Part shown: positions 363-8,890 of the stretch, piece by piece
Layout: each line of letters opens with the position of its first letter
How positions within the stretch are numbered: the first letter of the stretch is position 1
IMG/VR virus record: IMGVR_UViG_2706794662_000010
Length of the DNA: 10,047 nucleotides
Direction: 5' to 3' (one strand)
Origin: a virus
Taxonomy: Duplodnaviria > Heunggongvirae > Uroviricota > Caudoviricetes
The notes under the pieces: generated by a model
Databases searched by the model: none
Told to the model about the DNA's origin: nothing
What the model saw: only the letters and a program-made list of their open reading frames with translations
Program-made: the position numbers and the translations under genes

Positions 363-884
363 ATGGAACTAAAAAATATAACCCGTTATTATCCTGAAAA
401 TATGCCATATGGTAATAATGTTCAGTATTTCCAGAGTGAAGATGGTAAGGATTTCTACGAATCCCTGCCATTATTCACCAAAAAATATAAACTTTGCATA
501 ACACCTGACAGCGGCGTTATCTGCTCAATATCACAGGACGCCTCGGCGCTGTATCCTGCGGGGTTTTCTGTGGTTGAGGTCGATGAACTCCCTGAAGGCA
601 CGGATATTTCAGGAAACTGGAAGTTTGATAATGGCATAATCTCCCGTATTCCGGTTAACTACGCAAGAAAACTGGAAGCAATGCGCCAGTCATATCTTAA
701 TCAGGCATATGAAAAAATTAATGACTGGAGAACGGAGCTACAACTGGGCACCATCAGCGATGAAGACAGAGCAGCACTTACCCAATGGATGGCATACATC
801 AGTCAGGTGAAGAAAATGGAACTACCCGCCATTAAAACAGAAGCTGAATTTAACGCCATTAAATGGCCTGAGCAGCCACAGTAA
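363..884 (+). CDS. tfa: Tail fibre assembly chaperone (Tfa / Mu U-like)
   Basis: 173-aa ORF with AGGAGG RBS at 351-356, 6 nt before the ATG. C-terminal region (...DEDRAALTQWMAYISQVKKMELPAIKTEAEFNAIKWPEQPQ) resembles the conserved C-terminus of phage tail-fibre assembly proteins, and it lies immediately 3' of a fibre gene. Confidence 0.75.
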   Translation: MELKNITRYYPENMPYGNNVQYFQSEDGKDFYESLPLFTKKYKLCITPDSGVICSISQDASALYPAGFSVVEVDELPEGTDISGNWKFDNGIISRIPVNYARKLEAMRQSYLNQAYEKINDWRTELQLGTISDEDRAALTQWMAYISQVKKMELPAIKTEAEFNAIKWPEQPQ

Positions 885-887
885 TAA

Positions 888-907
888 AGAAGGCCGGAAG
901 GCCTTCT
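888..907. terminator. Perfect hairpin AGAAGGCC-GGAA-GGCCTTCT between convergent genes; likely bidirectional terminator
   Basis: 8-bp GC-rich stem with 4-nt loop, 3 nt after the tfa stop and 9 nt before the stop of the minus-strand fibre cassette; flanked by A/T-rich sequence on both sides. Confidence 0.5.
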
Positions 908-915
908 GAATATCA

Positions 916-1058
916 TTATATACTTGCAGCCGTCACCCATGCTCCATTTAACAGATACTGCAACGGCCGGTAATACACGCCGCCGACGTTATCTGCCGTA
1001 TTCTTACCGACATCCTGTACTTTAATTCCGGTAAGAACATTGCCGCCCCCCAGATTCA
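916..1058 (-). CDS. Alternative tail-fibre C-terminal cassette (S'-like), inverted relative to the upstream fibre gene; 5' part runs into the N-run
   Basis: Minus-strand frame ending at stop 916-918 encodes ...NLGGGNVLTGIKVQDVGKNTADNVGGVYYRPLQYLLNGAWVTAASI. This shares the terminal motif YRPLQyLlnGaWvT with the plus-strand fibre end (FRPLQKLVGGTWIT). Maximum size is about 118 codons before the invertase start region. Confidence 0.55.
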
Positions 1059-1326
1059 NNNNNNNNNNNNNNNNNNNNNNNNNNNNNNNNNNNNNNNNNN
1101 NNNNNNNNNNNNNNNNNNNNNNNNNNNNNNNNNNNNNNNNNNNNNNNNNNNNNNNNNNNNNNNNNNNNNNNNNNNNNNNNNNNNNNNNNNNNNNNNNNNN
1201 NNNNNNNNNNNNNNNNNNNNNNNNNNNNNNNNNNNNNNNNNNNNNNNNNNNNNNNNNNNNNNNNNNNNNNNNNNNNNNNNNNNNNNNNNNNNNNNNNNNN
1301 NNNNNNNNNNNNNNNNNNNNNNNNNN
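1059..1326. other. Run of 268 N (masked or unsequenced bases)
   Basis: Directly visible in the sequence. It covers the 5' part of the inverted fibre cassette, the expected invertase promoter and crossover site, and the invertase N-terminus. Confidence 1.
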
Positions 1327-1850
1327 TACAAAGAAATGCGCTGGAATGTGCAGGATGTGAGCTGTTTTTCGAAGACAGAATAAGCGGTAAGACAAGGGAG
1401 CGTCCCGGACTTAAACGCGCATTAAAGCGACTCCGGCCAGGGGATACCCTGCTGGTCTGGAAACTGGATCGCCTTGGACGCAGTATGCAGCACCTTGTCC
1501 TTTTAACAGAAGAACTCCGGCAACGCGGCGTTAACTTCCGCAGCATTACGGACAATATTGATACATCCACTCCCATGGGACGTTTCTTTTTCCATATAAT
1601 GGGCGCGCTGGCGGAAATGGAGCGGGAACTCATTATTGAACGTACACGCGCGGGTCTTGCTGCTGCCCGTGCTCAGGGGCGTCATGGCGGCAGACCTCAG
1701 AAACTGACAGAGAAAGAGCGGGAGCAAATCGCCCGTTTGCTGGCTAATGGCGAGTCCCGTAAACAAATCGCACTGATATTTGATATTGGCCTTTCCACCC
1801 TTTATCGTTATTTTCCTGCCTCACCAGCTCCGTCACCAAAAGTACCGTGA
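1327..1850 (+). CDS. Serine DNA invertase, Gin/Pin/Cin/Hin family (visible C-terminal ~173 codons; start masked, estimated near 1278)
   Basis: Frame beginning at 1329 reads QRNALECAGCELFFEDRISGKTRERPGLKRALKRLRPGDTLLVWKLDRLGRSMQHLVLLTEELRQRGVNFRSITDNIDTSTPMGRFFFHIMGALAEMERELIIERTRAGLAAARAQGRHGGRPQKLTEKEREQIARLLANGESRKQIALIFDIGLSTLYRYF..., stop 1848-1850. Shows the resolvase/invertase core (DRLGRS, MGRFFFH, GALAEMEREL) and a C-terminal HTH; near-colinear with Gin/Pin as recalled. Confidence 0.9.
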
Positions 1851-1935: not shown

Positions 1936-3990
1936 ATGTCAGACTCCAAGTGGAAAATGCTCTCCGCCATGCCCGGAGAGTTTTCAGTCAAGGTTGCCGG
2001 TGGCACGGTGGCATTTATTGAAAGCCCTTTCCGCCCTTCGGGTAATAAAGGGGGGATCACCTTCGCAGACTGCGTGATCCGCTTCAGCACGAAAGAGCCA
2101 TTATGGGTAATGCCGGTATCCGGTAATCCCAGTGCAGAAATCACCAGTTCAGGCGTGACTGGCATCATTCCAATCACATCTGACGTGGCCGGAACGCTCA
2201 CGCCCTCCGACTGGAATGCACCGGATAACGCCGGGCCTTCCGGTAGCACGAATGGCAGCAGTTCAGAGCCGGAATATTACTTTGTTGTCATTCTCGCGGG
2301 TCAGTCAAATGGCATGGCCTACGGCGAGGGGCTGCCGTTACCGGATTCGTTTGACCGCCCGGACCCACGCATTAAGCAACTGGCACGCCGCAGTACGGTA
2401 ACGCCCAACGGTACGTCGTGTACATACAACGACATCATTCCGGCAGACCACTGCCTGCATGATGTTCAGGATATGAGCGGGATAAACCACCCGAAAGCTG
2501 ATCTGGCAAAAGGCCAGTACGGGACTGTCGGTCAGGGGTTGCATATTGCCAAAAAACTGCTTCCCTATATCCCACAGAATGCCGGGATACTTCTGGTGCC
2601 CTGTTGTCGTGGCGGGTCAGCATTCACCACTGGAGCCGACGGCTCATTCAGTGAGGCCAGCGGTGCTTCCGCTGATTCTTCACGCTGGGGGGCCGGTAAA
2701 CCTCTGTATCAGGACCTGGTAAGCCGCACCAAAGTCGCGCTGGCGAAAAACCCGAAAAACAAACTTCTGGCTGTGGTCTGGATGCAGGGAGAGGCAGACC
2801 TTGCCTCAGGAAGCCAGCAGCATAATAGTTTATTCACGGCCATGGTTCAGCAGTTCAGAACTGACCTGGCTCCGCTTGCTGCGCAGTGCGTGAGTGGAAA
2901 TGCCACCACGGTGCCGTGGATTTGCGGTGATACCACGTATTACTGGAAAAACGCTGGCACCGATAAATATGAGGCAGTATACGGTGGCTACAAAGGCAAG
3001 GAAGCACAGAAAATTTTCTTTGTACCGTTCCTGACGGATGAGAATGGACAGAGCACGCCAACGAATGCTCCGGCGGAAGACCCGGATATTGTGGCTGTCG
3101 GGTATTACGGTGCAGCATCCCGAACCCAGGGCAGTTTTGTTTCGACACAGCGTGACAGCCATTTCAGCTCATGGGCACGCAGGGGCGTCATTTCAGACCG
3201 TCTGGCCTCAGCTATTATGCTCCATGCAGGGCGCACGGCTGAACTGATGCGCGGGCAGACCGTGACACCACCGGATGAGAAGCCGTCACCTGATACACCA
3301 TCAAAACCGTCCACGCCACCCGCAGACACCACGACGATGAGTACGCTATTTGCTTACCGGGCATCTGAGTCTGAAGGACGGTTGACACCACAGGGTTGGG
3401 CTGCCGGAGGTGGCAAGGCTCAAATCGTGGATGATGCCGGAGCCAGCGGGGGTAAGGCAATGAAACTGACCAAGGAAACAGGAAGAGCCCCCTGGTACCT
3501 TGAGCATGATGCTGGTAATGGTGCGGACCTGCTGGGTAAAGGTGGTCTTGTCAGTTGTCGTTTTAAACTCGATGGCGCGCTTACGGCTAATCAGTACGCA
3601 CTGGCGCTGTACTGGCCGGTTTCTGCCCTGCCGCAAGGGGTTACTCTGGAAGGAAATGCCGGTCATAACCTGCTGGCATCGTTCTACGTACAGAGCGATG
3701 CCACAGACCTTAACGTGATGTATCACAAAGGAAACACGGCGCAGAACACGAAGCTGGGGTCATTCGGCGCATTTAATAACGAATGGCATACGCTGGGCTT
3801 CCGTTTTGCCGGTAACAACAGTATTGAGGTGACGCCGGTCATTGATGGTAAGGACGGGACACCATTCATGCTGTCGCAGTCTCCGGTCGGCACGTTTACG
3901 GCAGACAAGTTGCGCGTGACCGATATCACTAAAAATGCGACTTACCCGGTACTGATTGACAGTATCGTGGTGGAAGTGAATAACGCGTAA
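1936..3990 (+). CDS. SASA/SGNH-family carbohydrate O-acetylesterase with Pro/Thr linker and C-terminal lectin-like domain (prophage NanS-p-like sialate O-acetylesterase candidate)
   Basis: 684-aa uninterrupted ORF. Contains the GQSN motif (codons 2299-2310, candidate catalytic Ser at 2305-2307) and a downstream WMQGEAD block typical of the SASA/DUF303 esterase family. A TPPDEKPSPDTPSKPSTPPADTTT linker lies at about 3262-3335, followed by a ~215-aa beta-rich domain. No signal peptide. Weak RBS; ATG at 1957 is an alternative start. Confidence 0.65.
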   Translation: MSDSKWKMLSAMPGEFSVKVAGGTVAFIESPFRPSGNKGGITFADCVIRFSTKEPLWVMPVSGNPSAEITSSGVTGIIPITSDVAGTLTPSDWNAPDNAGPSGSTNGSSSEPEYYFVVILAGQSNGMAYGEGLPLPDSFDRPDPRIKQLARRSTVTPNGTSCTYNDIIPADHCLHDVQDMSGINHPKADLAKGQYGTVGQGLHIAKKLLPYIPQNAGILLVPCCRGGSAFTTGADGSFSEASGASADSSRWGAGKPLYQDLVSRTKVALAKNPKNKLLAVVWMQGEADLASGSQQHNSLFTAMVQQFRTDLAPLAAQCVSGNATTVPWICGDTTYYWKNAGTDKYEAVYGGYKGKEAQKIFFVPFLTDENGQSTPTNAPAEDPDIVAVGYYGAASRTQGSFVSTQRDSHFSSWARRGVISDRLASAIMLHAGRTAELMRGQTVTPPDEKPSPDTPSKPSTPPADTTTMSTLFAYRASESEGRLTPQGWAAGGGKAQIVDDAGASGGKAMKLTKETGRAPWYLEHDAGNGADLLGKGGLVSCRFKLDGALTANQYALALYWPVSALPQGVTLEGNAGHNLLASFYVQSDATDLNVMYHKGNTAQNTKLGSFGAFNNEWHTLGFRFAGNNSIEVTPVIDGKDGTPFMLSQSPVGTFTADKLRVTDITKNATYPVLIDSIVVEVNNA

Positions 3991-4005: not shown

Positions 4006-4038
4006 GCCGCCGGTAAGGGAAAACAAGAAACCGGCGGC
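4006..4038. terminator. Hairpin GCCGCCGGT-(15 nt)-ACCGGCGGC flanked by A-tracts; possible terminator, orientation ambiguous
   Basis: 9-bp GC stem 16 nt after the esterase stop. The plus strand has A-runs on both sides, so the minus strand has U-tracts; it would be more efficient for minus-strand transcripts. Confidence 0.35.
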
Positions 4039-4134: not shown

Positions 4135-4317
4135 ATGACATTTTTACAGCTTATTTTATTGTATTTCTGCACGGCAGTATGTGCGTTATATCTGGTGAGT
4201 GGTGGTTATAAGGCCATCAGAAATTATGTTCGCCGCAAAATTGAGGACGCAGCAGCTGAAAAACTCAGTAAAACAGCGCAGGTAACTCCGCTCCCAAAAG
4301 ACCCGACCCAGCCCTGA
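4135..4317 (+). CDS. Small membrane protein (one predicted N-terminal TM helix, charged C-terminal tail), unknown function
   Basis: ATG at 4135 preceded by GGGAGG (4125-4130). MTFLQLILLYFCTAVCALYLVSGGYKAIRNYVRRK... has a hydrophobic N-terminus followed by a basic stretch. The track ORF from TTG 4123 has no RBS. Confidence 0.5.
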   Translation: MTFLQLILLYFCTAVCALYLVSGGYKAIRNYVRRKIEDAAAEKLSKTAQVTPLPKDPTQP

Positions 4318-4352
4318 TTGCAGGGCTTTATTCCCGCATAAGGAGGATATAC

Positions 4353-4607
4353 ATGCCAGAAATTAAAGGCACCGTCACTGAAGACCTGGTAAAACAGGCA
4401 CTGTATTCCGGTGAAGTAAATAAGTTGCTGAAAGCGCAGGTCCGCAAGGATTTTGAGGCACAAATCGACACTTACGTTGATGAAGTGCTGGCAAAACTTA
4501 TTGGGCCAGCAGTTGCGGCCAGTGATGCTGATAATGAGCCGAAAACCGACGCGCAGCCAGAGCAACCAGACCCGGCTCAGCCCGGAACTGACAGTACCAT
4601 GATGTAA
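4353..4607 (+). CDS. Small acidic protein (84 aa), unknown function
   Basis: Strong RBS AGGAGG (4341-4346) 6 nt before the ATG. About 16 acidic versus 8 basic residues, with a Pro/Gln/Asp-rich C-terminus. Followed by a hairpin at 4613-4640. Confidence 0.6.
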   Translation: MPEIKGTVTEDLVKQALYSGEVNKLLKAQVRKDFEAQIDTYVDEVLAKLIGPAVAASDADNEPKTDAQPEQPDPAQPGTDSTMM

Positions 4608-4774: not shown

Positions 4775-5068
4775 TTAGTCCGATTCACGCTTTTGTAGAA
4801 TCGTTCCCAGAATGCTATACAGCTCATTAGCCTGTTGCTCCATCATTGAGACGGAGGCTATACGGTGCAAAGTGATTTCAGGAGGTGGCACACCTCCATC
4901 TTCTTGCTGTGGAGGAAAAACATAAGATTTAATAAAAAAGTTGAAGCATATGAACTCTCCCGCACTCGAACTGTATTTGCAGGCATCTGAATAATCGGAA
5001 AAATAATCATTATAGATTTCCGCATTTTCAATCATTTTTCGATTTCTCGTCGTTACATGATTGTCCAT
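4775..5068 (-). CDS. Hypothetical protein (97 aa), divergently transcribed from com-mom
   Basis: Minus-strand ORF with AAGAGG RBS 5 nt upstream of the ATG (complement of 5074-5079). No recognisable family. Upstream is a 250-bp AT-rich intergenic region shared with the com promoter region. Confidence 0.5.
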   Translation of the reverse strand: MDNHVTTRNRKMIENAEIYNDYFSDYSDACKYSSSAGEFICFNFFIKSYVFPPQQEDGGVPPPEITLHRIASVSMMEQQANELYSILGTILQKRESD

Positions 5069-5324: not shown

Positions 5325-5525
5325 ATGTATCGAAACATACGGTGCCGACATTGTAACAAGCTACTGGCACGAGCCAGCTTCAGTTATCTGGAAGTTAAAT
5401 GTCCGCGCTGTAAAACCCTCAATCAAATCACATCTCAGAGCGCCACAGAGCACCCCACATACACAAGGAAATCCTGTCGTGGGGAACAGAAAGCAAGTTA
5501 CATCCCGTATCATCAGCACGCCTGA
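5325..5525 (+). CDS. com: Com-like zinc-finger translational activator of mom
   Basis: ATG 5325 with AGGAGG (5309-5314) upstream. [35 protein letters not shown]... matches the Mu Com pattern IRCxxCNKLL...CPRCK (CxxC...CxxC finger) as recalled. Small (66 aa) and overlaps the next ORF in another frame, as in Mu. Confidence 0.8.
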
Positions 5526-6216
5526 ACTTATTCACTATAACGACAATATCGTCGGTTATGGCTCCCGTGAGTTACGGGTTGAGACAATAAGTTGCTGGCT
5601 GGCCCGGCTGGTCGTCGTCAATAAACATTACAGCCATCGTTTCGTAAATAATTCCTACCTTCATCTGGGCATATTTTCAGAACGGGAGCTGGTTGGCGTA
5701 ATGCAATGGGGTTATGCCCTTAATCCAAACAATGGTGCACGCGTCGTAACTGGCACGCAGAACCGCGAATATATGGAGCTTAACCGGTTATGGCTGCATG
5801 ACTGTATGCCGAGAAACTCCGAATCAAGGGCAATCAGTTACGCGCTCAAACTAATCAGACAACTTTATCCGCAGGTGCAGTGGGTTCAGTCGTTTGCAGA
5901 TGAGCGTTGTGGCTGTCTTGGTGTCGTGTACCAGGCAAGCAATTTTGATTATGTAGGCAGTCATGAAACAACATTCTATGAACTTGATGGCGAGTGGTAT
6001 CACGAGATTTGCAAGAATGCAATCAAACGAGGAGGACAGCGAGGTGAACATCTGCGGACTAATATCGACAGAGCCAGTGTTCATAAATTCCGTCAGTTTC
6101 GTTACATCCGGTTTCTGGACAAGAGAGCCAGAAAACGCCTTAACACAAAGCTATTCAAAGTCCAGCCTTACCCAAAACCACAAACAGTTAAAACTGGTTT
6201 GAAAGAGAGTGAATGA
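5479..6216 (+). CDS. mom: Mom-like DNA-modification protein (anti-restriction adenine modification); start codon uncertain
   Basis: Long ORF in the +1 frame relative to com, overlapping the com 3' end. Candidate GTG start at 5479 with AAGGA 9 nt upstream, giving about 245 aa. Assignment rests on the com coupling and the Mu-like gene order invertase-com-mom; the body was not matched to Mom from memory. Confidence 0.6.
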
Positions 6217-6252
6217 ACGCTTAAAAACTCATTCTAAAACTCAAAAGAAAAG

Positions 6253-6292
6253 CGCCGATTTAGTATCAAATAAGTTGCGTATCGGCGTTTTT
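6253..6292 (+). terminator. Candidate terminator after mom: CGCCGAT-(21 nt)-ATCGGCG followed by TTTTT
   Basis: 7-bp inverted repeat 6253-6259 / 6281-6287 followed by T5 (6288-6292); the loop is unusually long. Confidence 0.35.
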
Positions 6293-6295
6293 CAG

Positions 6296-6327
6296 CGGTA
6301 TCAAATGAAATGCAAATCGGTATCAAA
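6296..6327. repeat. Two exact direct copies of CGGTATCAAA 22 bp apart, plus a third GTATCAAA at 6263-6270, at the module boundary
   Basis: Exact 10-mers at 6296-6305 and 6318-6327, between the mom stop and the point where H homology ends. Possible transposase or recombinase binding iterons. Confidence 0.5.
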
Positions 6328-7046
6328 AAAATCGCCGCGCTATACGCTGCCAGACCCAGACGGGCATTTTCCCGGTCATCCCATGCGCCCTGAAGGTTGG
6401 CCCGGAAAGAGGAGGTTTTACCGCGGCGCTGGCTCCGACTCTGGTACCACTGCCATTTTTTATCCGCCTCATCAAATGCCTTCTGCGCACTGGCGAGCAT
6501 ATCCGCTGAGGATTCCGGACGACCGATATCCAGAATGGCATCCCACATCGATTTGAATGCCTTCCCTGTTTTATCCGCCCAGGTCTCCAGTGTTCCCATG
6601 TTTTCTTTCAGGCGACGGGTCTGCTCATCAAAGCCTTTCGTGGCGATATCGTTCGCCGCCTGCAATGCCCCGGCCTCGTCTCCGGAACGCTGCAGCTGTG
6701 CAACATACGCAATCTGCTCTGCCGTCACGTTACGGAACTGGCGCGCCATCGCCATCAGTCCCGACGTCGGGTCAGTGGTCAGCTTCCCGAAGGCTTCAGC
6801 GACTTTATCCACCTCCACACCGGATGCAGACGCAAAACGCGCGACACTCTGGTTGATGGCATCAAACTGTTCACCACCACGCACACCGGCATTCACCAGG
6901 GCTGCCAGTGACTCTCTCGCCTGGTTAAACGTCAGCCCTGCTGCCTGCCCGGCTCTTGAGAGAGTCAGCATACGATCGGCAGTCAGTCCGGACTGATTAC
7001 CGGAAAGAACCAGGGTTTTATTAAACGCTGAAAGCGTGGAATCTCC

Positions 7047-7319
7047 NNNNNNNNNNNNNNNNNNNNNNNNNNNNNNNNNNNNNNNNNNNNNNNNNNNNNN
7101 NNNNNNNNNNNNNNNNNNNNNNNNNNNNNNNNNNNNNNNNNNNNNNNNNNNNNNNNNNNNNNNNNNNNNNNNNNNNNNNNNNNNNNNNNNNNNNNNNNNN
7201 NNNNNNNNNNNNNNNNNNNNNNNNNNNNNNNNNNNNNNNNNNNNNNNNNNNNNNNNNNNNNNNNNNNNNNNNNNNNNNNNNNNNNNNNNNNNNNNNNNNN
7301 NNNNNNNNNNNNNNNNNNN
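7047..7319. other. Run of 273 N (masked or unsequenced bases)
   Basis: Directly visible; hides the T stop and the H start. Confidence 1.
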
Positions 7320-7717
7320 TCATCCACCATGACATCCGCCACATCCGCAGACGATAAAATATCGCGCCCTCCGTCCCCACCGAACCGGACGCCTCCGGCA
7401 AGTCCTGCCGCTTTCTGCATCAGCATTTTGTCCTCATCCGGCCTCTCCACCTGCTCTTCCTCATGCCGGGGGACAAGCAGACTGAAATCAGAGGGATGCA
7501 TATCCGGATCGCAAAAAAACAGGCTGAGTACAGCGTACGTCAGCCCGGAAAAATGCATATCCAGCTGGGTATCCTGAAAATAATGCGTGCGGTAAAAACG
7601 GCGCCAGTCGGCATATTCGGTGGATGTCATCCCGGCAAGCATGGCGCGCCAGTCGGGTCTCCCCATCTCACGCGCCAGTCTGAGGGCAAAGTTCAGCTCG
7701 CCGTCGAAGACTTTCCC
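7320..7717 (-). CDS. T: Tail assembly chaperone T region, expressed as G-T fusion by -1 frameshift; 3' end masked
   Basis: Frame -1 relative to G, from the slippery site downward: GKVFDGELNFALRLAREMGRPDWRAMLAGMTSTEYADWRRFYRTHYFQDTQLDMHFSGLTYAVLSLFFCDPDMHPSDF...MLMQKAAGLAGGVRFG..., lambda gpT-like as recalled. The track ORF tail at 6983-7046 is an off-frame reading of H, not T. Confidence 0.8.
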
Positions 7718-8137: not shown

Positions 8138-8890
8138 TTACCCTGCAGCGCCCGCTTCAGTAACGGTGACTTCAGCCACTGCGGCGAACTGACCATTTCC
8201 GCTCACCACAGGGATCTGCACCTTACCTGTCGCCACGCCGTTTACCGTAATTGTCATATCTTTCACACTAATGGTGGCTTTCGACGGATCGGCGGAAACC
8301 GCTCTGAACGTCTTGTCGGTTGCACTTTCCGGCTCAAAAGAAACCGTCAGGGTGGTTGTTTTCCCTTTTGCCACCGTACCGGATGTCGGCGTCACCTTAA
8401 TCGCACTGACCGGCGTAATTTTGCTGCGTTCTTCCGCTACAGAAGGTTTACCCACGTTAGTGACTTTCACCGTGCGGGTGATCACTTCTTTCGCCGTCAC
8501 GGCCTTACCGATACTGCTGACCCAGCCACGAAACACATCCACCGTGCCATTCGGAAAACGGATTTTATAGGCCCGGACATCGCCGCTTTCAAACCAGCCT
8601 ATAAGCCCTTTCTGGCCTTCCTCTCCCGGTTTCCAGGCCAGCGTAAAACTGGTATCACCTGCAGATTTCTGCCCCTGCCCGGTCGCGCTCCAGTCCGCGT
8701 CTTCATCATCCAGGTAGTTATCATCATAGGATTCAGCCGTCATCTCGCCCGGCGTCAGATCCTTCACCTTAGCCAGTCGCTGCCAGTCATCGTCTGACAA
8801 CGGGTTTGCATAAGCATCAGCCTTGCCGTTGTAAACCCACAGAGTGGTACCGGCACCTTTTACCGGCTCCAGGGGATTTGGTGTTGCCAT
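8138..8890 (-). CDS. V: Major tail tube protein V with C-terminal Ig-like domain
   Basis: 250-aa ORF ...[58 protein letters not shown]...[42 protein letters not shown]..., lambda gpV-like as recalled. Confidence 0.92.

What the first reader, a model, noticed from the sequence alone, without database searches (positions are those of the whole stretch)
1936..3990. SASA/SGNH esterase fused to a lectin-like domain, encoded next to tail-fibre genes
The GQSN and WMQGEAD motifs place the N-terminal half in the sialate O-acetylesterase (SASA/DUF303) family. The architecture of esterase, Pro/Thr linker and beta-rich C-terminal domain resembles prophage NanS-p proteins of enterohaemorrhagic E. coli, which let the host use O-acetylated sialic acids. 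Its position beside the fibre-switching locus rather than the lysis region also allows a receptor-related role, such as de-O-acetylation of O-antigen or capsule as receptor modification or superinfection exclusion. There is no signal peptide, so release would require lysis or another export route.
Basis: partly seen in the sequence, partly recalled or inferred. Interest (0 to 1): 0.55.

Follow-up and report, generated by a model that had tools for sequence, protein, structure and literature searches.

The report
Mu-like prophage NanS-p esterase variant
This gene encodes a prophage sialic-acid O-acetylesterase of the known NanS-p kind, but it is carried by a Mu-like prophage and its usual capsid-binding N-terminal domain is replaced by a different, uncharacterised small beta-domain.

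Summary
The ORF is real: 1936..3990 (+), 684 aa. Residues 110-428 match the crystal structure of E. coli NanS/YjhS (3PT5, E 2e-117). Residues 469-683 match the lectin-like C-terminal domain of phage NanS-p (6YP6, E 7e-98). The catalytic residues Gln123-Ser124 and His409 are kept, as are four sugar-site aromatics.

- The gene sits in the right-end accessory slot of a Mu-like prophage, in the order gin, esterase, DUF1378, DUF826, com/mom. The element ends near 6344, inside a lambdoid tape-measure gene.
- DUF1378 and DUF826 follow it, as they do in Stx phages.
- Residues 1-110 are not DUF1737. They form an 80-aa beta-domain plus a flexible linker with no family match.

This N-module separates completely by phage backbone: 34 of 34 Mu-type loci carry it and 49 of 49 lambdoid loci carry DUF1737. 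The esterase and lectin parts are mosaic between the two classes, reaching 92-94% protein identity. DNA homology starts exactly at codon 111, and the module's dN/dS is 0.03-0.04.

A 2026 preprint shows DUF1737 anchors NanS-p to the phi24B capsid. The module may therefore be a Mu-specific virion anchor, which is inferred and untested. Verdict: a new variant of a known kind.

The parts
1936..3990 (+). Complete gene for a 684-aa NanS-p-type sialate O-acetylesterase (stop codon 3988-3990)
1936..2175 (+). N-terminal module, aa 1-80. Compact all-beta domain with no family assignment. It replaces DUF1737 of lambdoid NanS-p.
   Evidence: No Pfam or PHROG hit. AF2 domain model pLDDT 73-89. Only weak cupin-like fold matches. 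dN/dS 0.03-0.04. Found only in Mu-type loci.
2176..2265 (+). Flexible Gly/Ser/Pro/Asn-rich linker, aa 81-110, ending at the module junction
   Evidence: pLDDT below 50 for aa 83-111. Composition. DNA homology to lambdoid alleles begins at 2266.
2266..3225 (+). SASA / SGNH type-II esterase domain, aa 111-430
   Evidence: 3PT5 NanS E 2e-117 over aa 110-428. PF03629.
2302..2307 (+). Codons for Gln123 (oxyanion hole) and Ser124 (nucleophile) in the GQSN block
   Evidence: Aligned to the AGQSN block of NanS. Roles of Gln18/Ser19 taken from PMC9063846.
3160..3162 (+). Codon for His409 (general base) in the RDSH block
   Evidence: Aligned to RSSH of NanS. Block IV RSSH/RASH in NanS-p (PMC10462455).
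3226..3339 (+). Pro/Ser/Thr-rich interdomain linker, aa 431-468
   Evidence: Highest dN/dS of the protein (0.52). Length-variable in alignment A1.
3340..3987 (+). C-terminal lectin-like jelly-roll domain (DUF6645), aa 469-684, with aromatics Y554, Y559, Y584, F654
   Evidence: 6YP6 E 7e-98. PF20350. Residues checked and mapped by me from the alignment to Y510/Y515/Y540/F611 of vb_24B_21 (PMC10462455).
4135..4317 (+). DUF1378 small membrane protein (one TM helix), a conserved companion of the esterase
   Evidence: PF07125 E 1e-31. RefSeq start. KD19 2.27. Present downstream in Mu-type and lambdoid loci. dN/dS 0.14-0.32.
4353..4607 (+). DUF826 small protein, second conserved companion
   Evidence: PF05696 E 6e-16.. 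dN/dS 0.08-0.22.
363..884 (+). Context: tail-fibre assembly protein inside the invertible segment of the Mu-like prophage
   Evidence: PF02413, phrog_136. Orientation differs between genomes.
1485..1850 (+). Context: visible C-terminal part of the Gin/Pin-type DNA invertase. The full gene is about 1278-1850, and its 5' end is N-masked.
   Evidence: PF00239 + PF02796, phrog_125. RefSeq 573-nt recombinase. N-run 1059-1326.
5325..6216 (+). Context: com (5325-5525) and mom (5479-6216), the right-end DNA-modification operon of the Mu-like prophage
   Evidence: PF25680 Mom E 1e-77. RefSeq 'Com family' and 'Mom family' features.
6340..6346 (.). Approximate right end of the Mu-like element. Beyond it lies a truncated lambdoid tape-measure gene.
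   Evidence: Matches in many genomes with different flanks all stop at 6344-6346. Sequence. TMP fragment.

Best explanation
The gene encodes a Mu-like-prophage version of NanS-p, a cytoplasmically made, lysis-released sialate O-acetylesterase.

Esterase domain (aa 111-430). It is an SGNH type-II fold. It removes O-acetyl groups from Neu5,9Ac2 and related O-acetylated sialic acids, using Ser124 as nucleophile, His409 as base and Gln123 in the oxyanion hole. This is a dyad with no catalytic Asp, as in NanS.

C-terminal domain (aa 469-684). A Pro/Thr linker joins the esterase to a lectin-like jelly-roll domain that targets glycans.

Cassette. The gene travels as a three-gene cassette (esterase, DUF1378, DUF826). 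The cassette sits in the non-essential right-end slot of a family of E. coli/Shigella Mu-like phages, between the G-segment invertase and com/mom.

N-terminus. Residues 1-80 form a small beta-domain tied by a 30-residue flexible linker. This domain is specific to the Mu-like backbone and takes the place of the DUF1737 domain of lambdoid NanS-p.

Shown here: homology of both domains to solved structures, conservation of the catalytic and sugar-site residues, the context, the sharp module junction, the complete partition by phage type, and purifying selection.

Inferred: substrate and activity (from 70% identity to NanS and 84-91% identity to lambdoid alleles of an experimentally active family), release by lysis, and any role of the N-module.
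For: -: 3PT5 NanS E 2e-117 (aa 110-428). 6YP6 NanS-p C-terminal domain E 7e-98 (aa 469-683).
- PF03629 and PF20350.
- Q123, S124, H409, Y554, Y559, Y584 and F654 are present.
- DUF1737-type NanS-p proteins are 84-91% identical over aa ~110-684.
- 349 phage records match, mostly Stx phages, and are annotated yjhS / 9-O-acetyl-N-acetylneuraminic acid deacetylase.
- PMC8065619: seven to ten EDL933 alleles and five O104:H4 alleles of nanS-p were shown to encode active esterases.
- the context is always tfa/invertase upstream and DUF1378-DUF826-com-mom downstream, in Mu-type elements that include 35-40 kb contigs.
- DNA homology to lambdoid loci runs from 2266 to at most 4270.
- dN/dS is well below 1 for every part.
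- no signal peptide or TM segment.
Against: - No enzymatic assay exists for any allele with this N-terminus, so activity and substrate are extrapolated.
- The copy in the window belongs to a prophage whose completeness cannot be judged from 10 kb. Several genomes hold deleted derivatives of the element.
- No sigma-70-like promoter stands out upstream, so how and when the gene is expressed in a Mu-like phage is unknown.
- The full-length AF2 model was poor (pLDDT 39). The fold of the two large domains therefore rests on sequence homology to crystal structures, not on a model of this protein.
Confidence: 0.85

Rival explanations
1. The N-terminal module is a virion anchor. Like DUF1737 on the phi24B capsid, it would tether the esterase-lectin unit through the flexible linker to the Mu-type particle (capsid hexons or another surface site). 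Virions would then carry a mucin/sialoglycan-binding, de-O-acetylating decoration, possibly shed later by linker cleavage. This extends the best explanation and does not replace it.
For: - bioRxiv 10.64898/2026.04.10.717836: phi24B gp84 (NanS-p) is an abundant virion protein, and its DUF1737 domain binds capsid hexons.
- the N-terminal domain type partitions 34/34 against 49/49 with phage backbone.
- the rest of the protein recombines freely between the two classes, with a junction at codon 111.
- the module has the lowest dN/dS of the protein (0.03-0.04).
- it is conserved at 61% identity in a second lineage and 29-30% in a third, always fused to the esterase.
- a folded 80-aa domain followed by a 30-aa disordered linker is the architecture expected of a tether.
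Against: - The partition could arise from linkage alone. The module is the non-homologous 5' edge of the cassette, so recombination cannot move it.
- Fold searches give no match to known decoration or adaptor proteins.
- There is no paralogue among the Mu-like phage's own proteins.
- No virion proteomics exists for these phages.
- The fold is unlike DUF1737 (alpha helix plus three strands).
- The phi24B result is a preprint and concerns a T=9 podovirus capsid.
Confidence: 0.3
2. The enzyme acts on the bacterial surface rather than on host mucin. It would de-O-acetylate O-antigen, K1 polysialic-acid capsule or another receptor, to aid adsorption or to block superinfection.
For: - The gene lies next to the fibre/invertase locus.
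- The homologue is virion-associated in phi24B.
- The review PMC8065619 raises O-antigen de-O-acetylation as an open possibility for NanS-p.
- O-acetylated polysialic acid exists in E. coli K1 (PMC8319020, Table 1).
Against: - The adjacency is explained by the Mu genome plan, in which accessory genes sit between gin and the right end.
- The esterase and lectin domains are 84-94% identical to, and mosaic with, lambdoid alleles of a family shown to act on Neu5,9Ac2 and mucin (PMC8065619). A different substrate is therefore unlikely.
- The N-module has no homology to fibre, spike or baseplate proteins.
- The esterase core is 70% identical to the catabolic NanS.
Confidence: 0.1
3. The N-terminal module has a role that does not involve anchoring, for example oligomerisation, an extra glycan-binding site, or regulation or retention of the enzyme before lysis.
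For: - It is under strong purifying selection.
Against: - All fold matches are below significance (best Foldseek E 0.03-0.07).
- This reading does not explain why the domain type tracks phage backbone so strictly.
Confidence: 0.25
4. The gene is a decaying passenger in a defective prophage, with no current function.
For: Several genomes carry rearranged or deleted copies of the Mu-like element with many pseudogenes. The window's element abuts a broken lambdoid prophage.
Against: - The ORF is intact and identical in 22 complete genomes.
- dN/dS is 0.03-0.17.
- The same cassette is present in 35-40 kb Mu-like contigs and in a 40-kb phage annotated with target-site duplications.
Confidence: 0.03

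Closest known systems
NanS-p of lambdoid/Stx prophages (933W L0105/z1466; phi24B vb_24B_21 = gp84; PDB 6YP6 for the C-terminal domain)
   Same: - The SASA esterase core has the GQSN and R-x-S-H blocks.
- A Pro/Thr linker joins it to a DUF6645 lectin-like jelly-roll domain with the four aromatic residues.
- There is no signal peptide.
- DUF1378 and DUF826 lie immediately downstream.
- The closest lambdoid alleles are 84-91% identical over aa ~110-684.
   Different: - The N-terminal domain is not DUF1737. It is an unrelated ~80-aa beta-domain plus a longer linker, so the protein is 678-691 aa against 643-657 aa.
- The gene is in a transposable Mu-like phage between gin and com/mom, not between stx/Q and the holin of a lambdoid phage.
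Chromosomal NanS (YjhS) of E. coli, PDB 3PT5
   Same: About 70% identical over the whole esterase fold. The Gln-Ser nucleophile block and the catalytic His are conserved (PMC9063846).
   Different: NanS is a single-domain 326-337-aa enzyme of the nan regulon. It has neither the lectin domain nor an N-terminal module.
Phage Mu right-end organisation (G segment, gin, com, mom)
   Same: An invertible tail-fibre segment with tfa, a Gin-type invertase, then Com and Mom at the right end. A Mu-type transposase, Gam, Mor, lysis and baseplate genes are present in fuller copies.
   Different: From my own knowledge of phage Mu, gin is followed directly by com/mom. Here a ~3.3-kb cassette (esterase, DUF1378, DUF826, plus an unknown antisense ORF in some lineages) is inserted between them. 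In one lineage mom is replaced by a C5-cytosine methyltransferase.
Capsid decoration proteins that present glycan-binding domains (phi24B gp84 DUF1737; T4 Hoc)
   Same: The architecture is a small N-terminal domain, a flexible linker, and outward-facing carbohydrate-active domains.
   Different: There is no evidence that this N-module binds a capsid. Its fold is unlike DUF1737, and no structural match to Hoc-like or other decoration proteins was found.

Membership tests
NanS-p (prophage sialate O-acetylesterase) | SASA/SGNH esterase domain homologous to E. coli NanS | tested here: met
   3PT5 E 2e-117, aa 110-428. PF03629 E 1.5e-13, above the gathering score.
NanS-p (prophage sialate O-acetylesterase) | Catalytic Ser in GQSN and His in R-x-S-H (a Ser-His dyad with Gln in the oxyanion hole and no Asp) | tested here: met
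   Q123, S124 and H409 are present and aligned to the NanS blocks. Residue roles from PMC9063846 and PMC10462455.
NanS-p (prophage sialate O-acetylesterase) | C-terminal lectin-like jelly-roll domain with conserved aromatic sugar-site residues | tested here: met
   6YP6 E 7e-98. PF20350 E 7e-68. Y554, Y559, Y584 and F654 are conserved.
NanS-p (prophage sialate O-acetylesterase) | N-terminal DUF1737 (PF08410) domain | tested here: not met
   No PF08410 hit at E up to 10. The alignment shows an unrelated N-terminus up to aa ~105-110. The protein is therefore filed as a variant, not a canonical member.
NanS-p (prophage sialate O-acetylesterase) | Located in the late region of a lambdoid prophage, downstream of Q/stx and upstream of the holin, with DUF1378 and DUF826 in between | tested here: not met
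   The context is Mu-like (invertase upstream, com/mom downstream) in 34/34 loci. The DUF1378/DUF826 companions are nevertheless present.
NanS-p (prophage sialate O-acetylesterase) | Esterase activity on Neu5,9Ac2 / O-acetylated mucin sialic acids | not testable with these tools
   This needs a recombinant-protein assay. Activity is documented only for DUF1737-type alleles (PMC8065619).
SGNH hydrolase superfamily | Conserved blocks carrying the nucleophile Ser, an oxyanion Gly, and the His base | tested here: met
   The alignment to NanS covers the whole fold at about 70% identity. The NanS subfamily deviates from the canonical pattern by lacking the Asp (PMC9063846).
Mu-like transposable prophage (context of the gene) | G-type invertible fibre segment with invertase, and a com/mom-type operon at the right end | tested here: met
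   Pfam Resolvase + HTH_7, Caudo_TAP and Mom. The Com annotation. The segment is seen in both orientations among genomes.
Mu-like transposable prophage (context of the gene) | Mu-type transposase A/B, Gam, Mor and Mu-type baseplate genes in the same element, with insertion at varied sites and short target duplications | tested here: met
   L003 has a Mu transposase C-terminal domain protein, an AAA ATPase, Gam and Mor, and is inserted in bglJ. L004 has Gp45/46/47/48. LC727881 is annotated with a 4-bp duplication. The element has different flanks in different genomes. The left part of the element is outside the window.
Virion-borne receptor-deacetylating tail spike/fibre esterases | N-terminal adaptor homologous to tail, fibre or baseplate proteins of the same phage | tested here: not met
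   HMM and BLASTP searches with the N-module against all ORFs of a complete Mu-like phage gave no hit better than E ~0.05 apart from the esterase itself.
Capsid decoration protein (phi24B gp84-like) | N-terminal domain that binds capsid hexons | not testable with these tools
   There is no multimer modelling or virion proteomics here. The fold is unlike DUF1737.

The most novel reading that the evidence does not exclude
NanS-p-type esterases are modular virion decorations whose N-terminal domain is exchanged to fit the particle of the carrier phage. DUF1737 would fit phi24B-type capsids, and the ~80-aa beta-module described here would fit Mu-type particles. E. coli Mu-like phages would then display a sialoglycan-binding, de-O-acetylating enzyme on their surface. 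That would link a transposable phage to mucus adherence or mucin foraging. The co-inherited DUF1378 and DUF826 proteins would be part of the same functional unit, not of the lysis cassette.
Probability: 0.3. Interest if true: 0.65.

Novelty: new variant of a known kind. Interest (0 to 1): 0.42.

Why it matters
NanS-p enzymes let pathogenic E. coli use O-acetylated sialic acids from gut mucin, and they have been treated as a trait of lambdoid and Stx prophages.

This finding shows that the same esterase-lectin unit, with its two small companion genes, is also a stable cargo of Mu-like transposable phages. A second lineage alone has more than 1,000 database members.

Only the N-terminal domain differs, and it differs in strict step with the phage backbone. 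A 2026 preprint has just reassigned the lambdoid N-terminal domain (DUF1737) as a capsid anchor. The swap therefore gives a direct, cheap test of whether these enzymes are generally virion-displayed, and a candidate new capsid- or particle-binding domain for Mu-type phages.

Practically, annotation pipelines now call the protein only 'DUF6645 domain-containing protein', which hides a likely mucin-foraging function.

Tried and rejected
1. Full-length AF2 with a 14-sequence alignment gave mean pLDDT 39 and is unusable. I relied on sequence matches to the crystal structures instead.
2. The word-indexed protein search with the N-module alone returned only fragments of the same protein. The exhaustive HMMER search found one remote relative, which is itself an esterase fusion in a Mu-like phage.
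4. A scan of species-representative genomes with a three-lineage N-module alignment found no further carriers, only esterase-core hits in Proteus faecis and a Bacillota MAG.
5. A search for a paralogue of the N-module among all ORFs of a complete 40-kb Mu-like phage was negative. I therefore rejected the idea that it is borrowed from a fibre or spike N-terminus.
6. The promoter/terminator scan found no more sites than the shuffles and nothing convincing upstream of the gene. The gin-esterase spacer is conserved only within lineages, so the expression signal is unresolved.
7. PADLOC and NCBIfam gave nothing for the esterase or the small neighbouring ORFs.
8. The primary NanS and NanS-p papers (Rangarajan 2011, Saile 2016, Feuerbaum 2018) are not held in the library. 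Catalytic-residue and activity statements are cited second-hand from PMC9063846 and PMC8065619.
9. A third N-terminal class was considered and rejected. All 'other' N-termini among 243 homologues are truncated partials or DUF1737 spelling variants.
Full report
**1. Observation**

The window holds an ATG-initiated ORF at 1936..3990 on the + strand, encoding 684 aa. RefSeq annotates the identical gene as WP_001284083.1, 'DUF6645 domain-containing protein'.
- GQSN lies at aa 122-125, so Ser124 is nt 2305-2307.
- WMQGEAD lies at aa 282-288.
- An RDSH block lies at aa 406-409.

Pfam places SASA (PF03629) at aa 117-312 (E 1.5e-13) and DUF6645 (PF20350) at aa 533-650 (E 7e-68). The one correction is that the esterase is the central part of the protein and is preceded by a separate 110-aa region.

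**2. What the two large domains are**

Two matches against the PDB settle this:
- Residues 110-428 align end to end with E. coli O157 NanS/YjhS (3PT5, E 2e-117, about 70% identity).
- Residues 469-683 align with the crystallised C-terminal domain of phage NanS-p (6YP6, E 7e-98, about 75% identity).

NanS works with a Ser19/His301 dyad with Gln18 in the oxyanion hole, and it lacks the catalytic Asp (PMC9063846, citing Rangarajan 2011). The corresponding Gln123, Ser124 and His409 are present here.

The four aromatic residues proposed as the sugar site of the phi24B domain are Y510, Y515, Y540 and F611 (PMC10462455). I mapped them through the alignment to Y554, Y559, Y584 and F654, and all four are conserved.

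The two domains are joined by a Pro/Ser/Thr-rich linker at aa 431-468. No signal peptide or TM segment is evident from hydropathy.

In the phage collection, 349 records match, mostly Stx-converting phages. Their features are annotated yjhS / 9-O-acetyl-N-acetylneuraminic acid deacetylase. Multiple nanS-p alleles of EDL933 and O104:H4 have been shown to encode active esterases that support growth on Neu5,9Ac2 and deacetylate mucin glycans (PMC8065619).

**3. Context**

The neighbours are not lambdoid. Upstream lie:
- a tail-fibre assembly gene (363-884);
- a Gin/Pin-type invertase (visible part 1485-1850; its 5' end falls in an N-masked run 1059-1326).

Downstream lie:
- DUF1378 (4135-4317);
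- DUF826 (4353-4607);
- an unknown antisense ORF;
- com (5325-5525) and mom (5479-6216).

In fuller copies the same element carries a Mu-type transposase, an AAA ATPase, Gam, Mor, lysis genes and Mu-type baseplate genes. In LC727881 a 40-kb copy is annotated as an 'inserted bacteriophage Mu-like phage' with a target duplication.

Matches in many E. coli genomes with different flanks all end at window 6344-6346. That marks the element's right end. Beyond it lies a truncated lambdoid tape-measure gene followed by lambda-type tail genes.

So the position 'beside the fibre-switching locus' simply reflects the Mu genome plan, in which accessory genes sit between gin and the right end. DUF1378 and DUF826 are the same genes that lie between nanS-p and the holin in Stx phages (PMC10462455).

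**4. The unusual part: residues 1-110**

Lambdoid NanS-p has an N-terminal DUF1737 domain (PMC10462455). Here there is no PF08410 hit and no Pfam or PHROG family at all.

*Two classes of homologue.* The homologues fall into two groups:
- 656-691-aa proteins with our N-terminus;
- 640-655-aa proteins with DUF1737.

The two groups are 84-91% identical from about aa 110 to the end. No third class exists among the 243 retrieved sequences.

*A sharp junction.* At the DNA level, homology to all matching lambdoid loci begins at exactly 2266 (codon 111, the first residue of the esterase fold). It ends by 4270, inside DUF1378.

*A complete partition by phage type.* I tabulated 83 loci.
- All 34 loci with our module have tfa and/or the invertase upstream. 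Where the contig reaches, they have DUF1378, DUF826 and com plus mom (or an alternative modification gene) downstream.
- All 49 DUF1737 loci lack the invertase, com and mom.
- The esterase and lectin parts nevertheless reach 92-94% identity across the two classes.

*Selection.* The module is conserved at 61% identity in a second, very common lineage (P0127/P0128, more than 1,000 members). It is conserved at 29-30% identity in a third lineage, P0126, again fused to the esterase and downstream of an invertase in a Mu-type tail cluster. Its dN/dS is 0.03-0.04 where synonymous sites are unsaturated. That is lower than the esterase at 0.09-0.14 and the lectin domain at 0.13-0.17. It is therefore a functional domain and not fusion debris.

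*Fold.* A domain-only AF2 model gives a compact all-beta domain for aa 1-80 (pLDDT 73-89) followed by a disordered Gly/Ser/Pro linker at aa 83-111. Fold searches return only sub-threshold similarities to small cupin/jelly-roll barrels:
- Foldseek E of at least 0.03.

The module contains no His, so it is not a metal cupin. It has no paralogue among the other proteins of a complete Mu-like phage. No further carriers turned up in species-representative genomes.

**5. Mechanism**

The best-supported reading is a lysis-released sialate O-acetylesterase with a glycan-targeting lectin domain. In other words, it is NanS-p function carried by a Mu-like prophage. I put confidence in this at about 0.85. 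Activity and substrate are inferred from homology.

What the N-module does is open. A 2026 preprint shows that phi24B gp84 (NanS-p) is an abundant virion protein. Its DUF1737 domain binds as hexamers to capsid hexons, and the enzymatic domains are shed by later cleavage.

Three features make a Mu-particle anchor the most attractive hypothesis: the strict co-variation of N-terminal domain type with phage backbone, the tether-like architecture, and the strong constraint. I put that probability at about 0.3. The partition could also follow from linkage alone, because the module is the non-homologous 5' edge of the cassette, and there is no structural or proteomic support. Oligomerisation or an extra glycan-binding role is a comparable alternative.

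The catalytic and lectin domains are interchangeable with lambdoid alleles of a family proven to act on sialates, and nothing links the protein to the fibre apparatus beyond adjacency.

**6. Comparison and novelty**

The protein meets the NanS-p features for the esterase, the catalytic residues, the lectin domain and the DUF1378/DUF826 companions. It fails two: the DUF1737 domain and the lambdoid late-region location. It is best filed as a new variant of a known kind.

In the searchable literature I found no paper combining Mu-like phages with NanS-p and none mentioning DUF6645. The proteins are in databases under generic names.

Interest is moderate at 0.42. The enzyme itself is ordinary. The backbone-specific N-terminal swap and the three-gene cassette conserved across two unrelated phage types make a recently raised question directly testable, namely whether NanS-p enzymes are virion decorations.

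Noticed in passing
window 6234-6971 (- strand) and about 6344: The Mu-like prophage ends near 6344, inside a lambdoid tape-measure gene, which is left as a fragment. Lambda-type tail genes follow on the - strand: a 227-aa ORF (6983-7666) in the position of the tail-assembly chaperone genes (not scanned against any family), and the major tail protein V with a Big_2 domain (8138-8890). This is a transposable phage inserted into another prophage. No complete E. coli genome in the collection shares this junction.
   Followed up: partly
window 363-1326, compared with L001, L003, L013, L018, L022 and L033: The tail-fibre assembly gene is on the + strand in the window and in some genomes, and on the - strand in others, relative to the fixed invertase and esterase. 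The G-like invertible segment is thus caught in both orientations across isolates.
   Followed up: partly
window 1059-1326 and 7047-7319: There are two runs of N, of 268 and 273 bases. The first hides the 5' end of the invertase gene and the adjacent part of the invertible segment. The second hides the middle of the 227-aa lambdoid ORF at 6983-7666 (-).
   Followed up: no
window 4135-4607; L002 11184-11647; type-B loci L035-L083: DUF1378 (one TM helix) and DUF826 accompany the esterase in both lambdoid and Mu-like phages. They are under purifying selection inside Mu-like phages (dN/dS 0.08-0.32), where no lysis cassette is adjacent. This suggests they belong functionally with the esterase and not with the holin region.
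   Followed up: partly
window 4775-5068 (- strand; RefSeq start gives 4775-5035): A low-GC (about 38%) antisense ORF of 86-97 aa lies between DUF826 and com. It has no Pfam, PHROG, NCBIfam or PADLOC match and has promoter-like sites just upstream (5089-5003, - strand). It is present in only some lineages of the cassette and absent from the LC727881-type lineage. It is a likely independent moron of unknown function.
   Followed up: partly
L002 12221-13472 (LC727881 Mu-like phage): In this Mu-like lineage the gene after com is not mom. It is a 350-aa ORF that I identified by eye, from its GTPCQ motif, as a C5-cytosine DNA methyltransferase. That would be a swap of the DNA-modification module under what looks like the same Com-type control.
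   Followed up: no
window 4006-4038: A 9-bp GC-rich hairpin (GCCGCCGGT...ACCGGCGGC, 15-nt loop) sits 16 nt after the esterase stop codon. It is flanked by an A-run upstream, so it reads as an intrinsic terminator on the minus strand rather than for the esterase transcript. The scan tool missed it because of the long loop.
   Followed up: no
E. coli genomes (for example DLI.5a, JE86-ST05, TOE17, AST198): Several strains carry two or three copies of the N-module-bearing esterase gene at different chromosomal sites, often within deleted or rearranged Mu-like elements. This is as expected for a transposing phage and shows that the cassette survives prophage decay.
   Followed up: partly
window 2245-2265 (aa 104-110) and L002 esterase aa 106-112: The N-module linker ends in Ser-rich motifs right at the junction: GSSSEP in the window and ASSSPS in the second lineage. 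The phi24B preprint proposes SSP-containing motifs as autoprocessing sites in the linkers of gp84. Whether this linker is cleaved is unknown.
   Followed up: no
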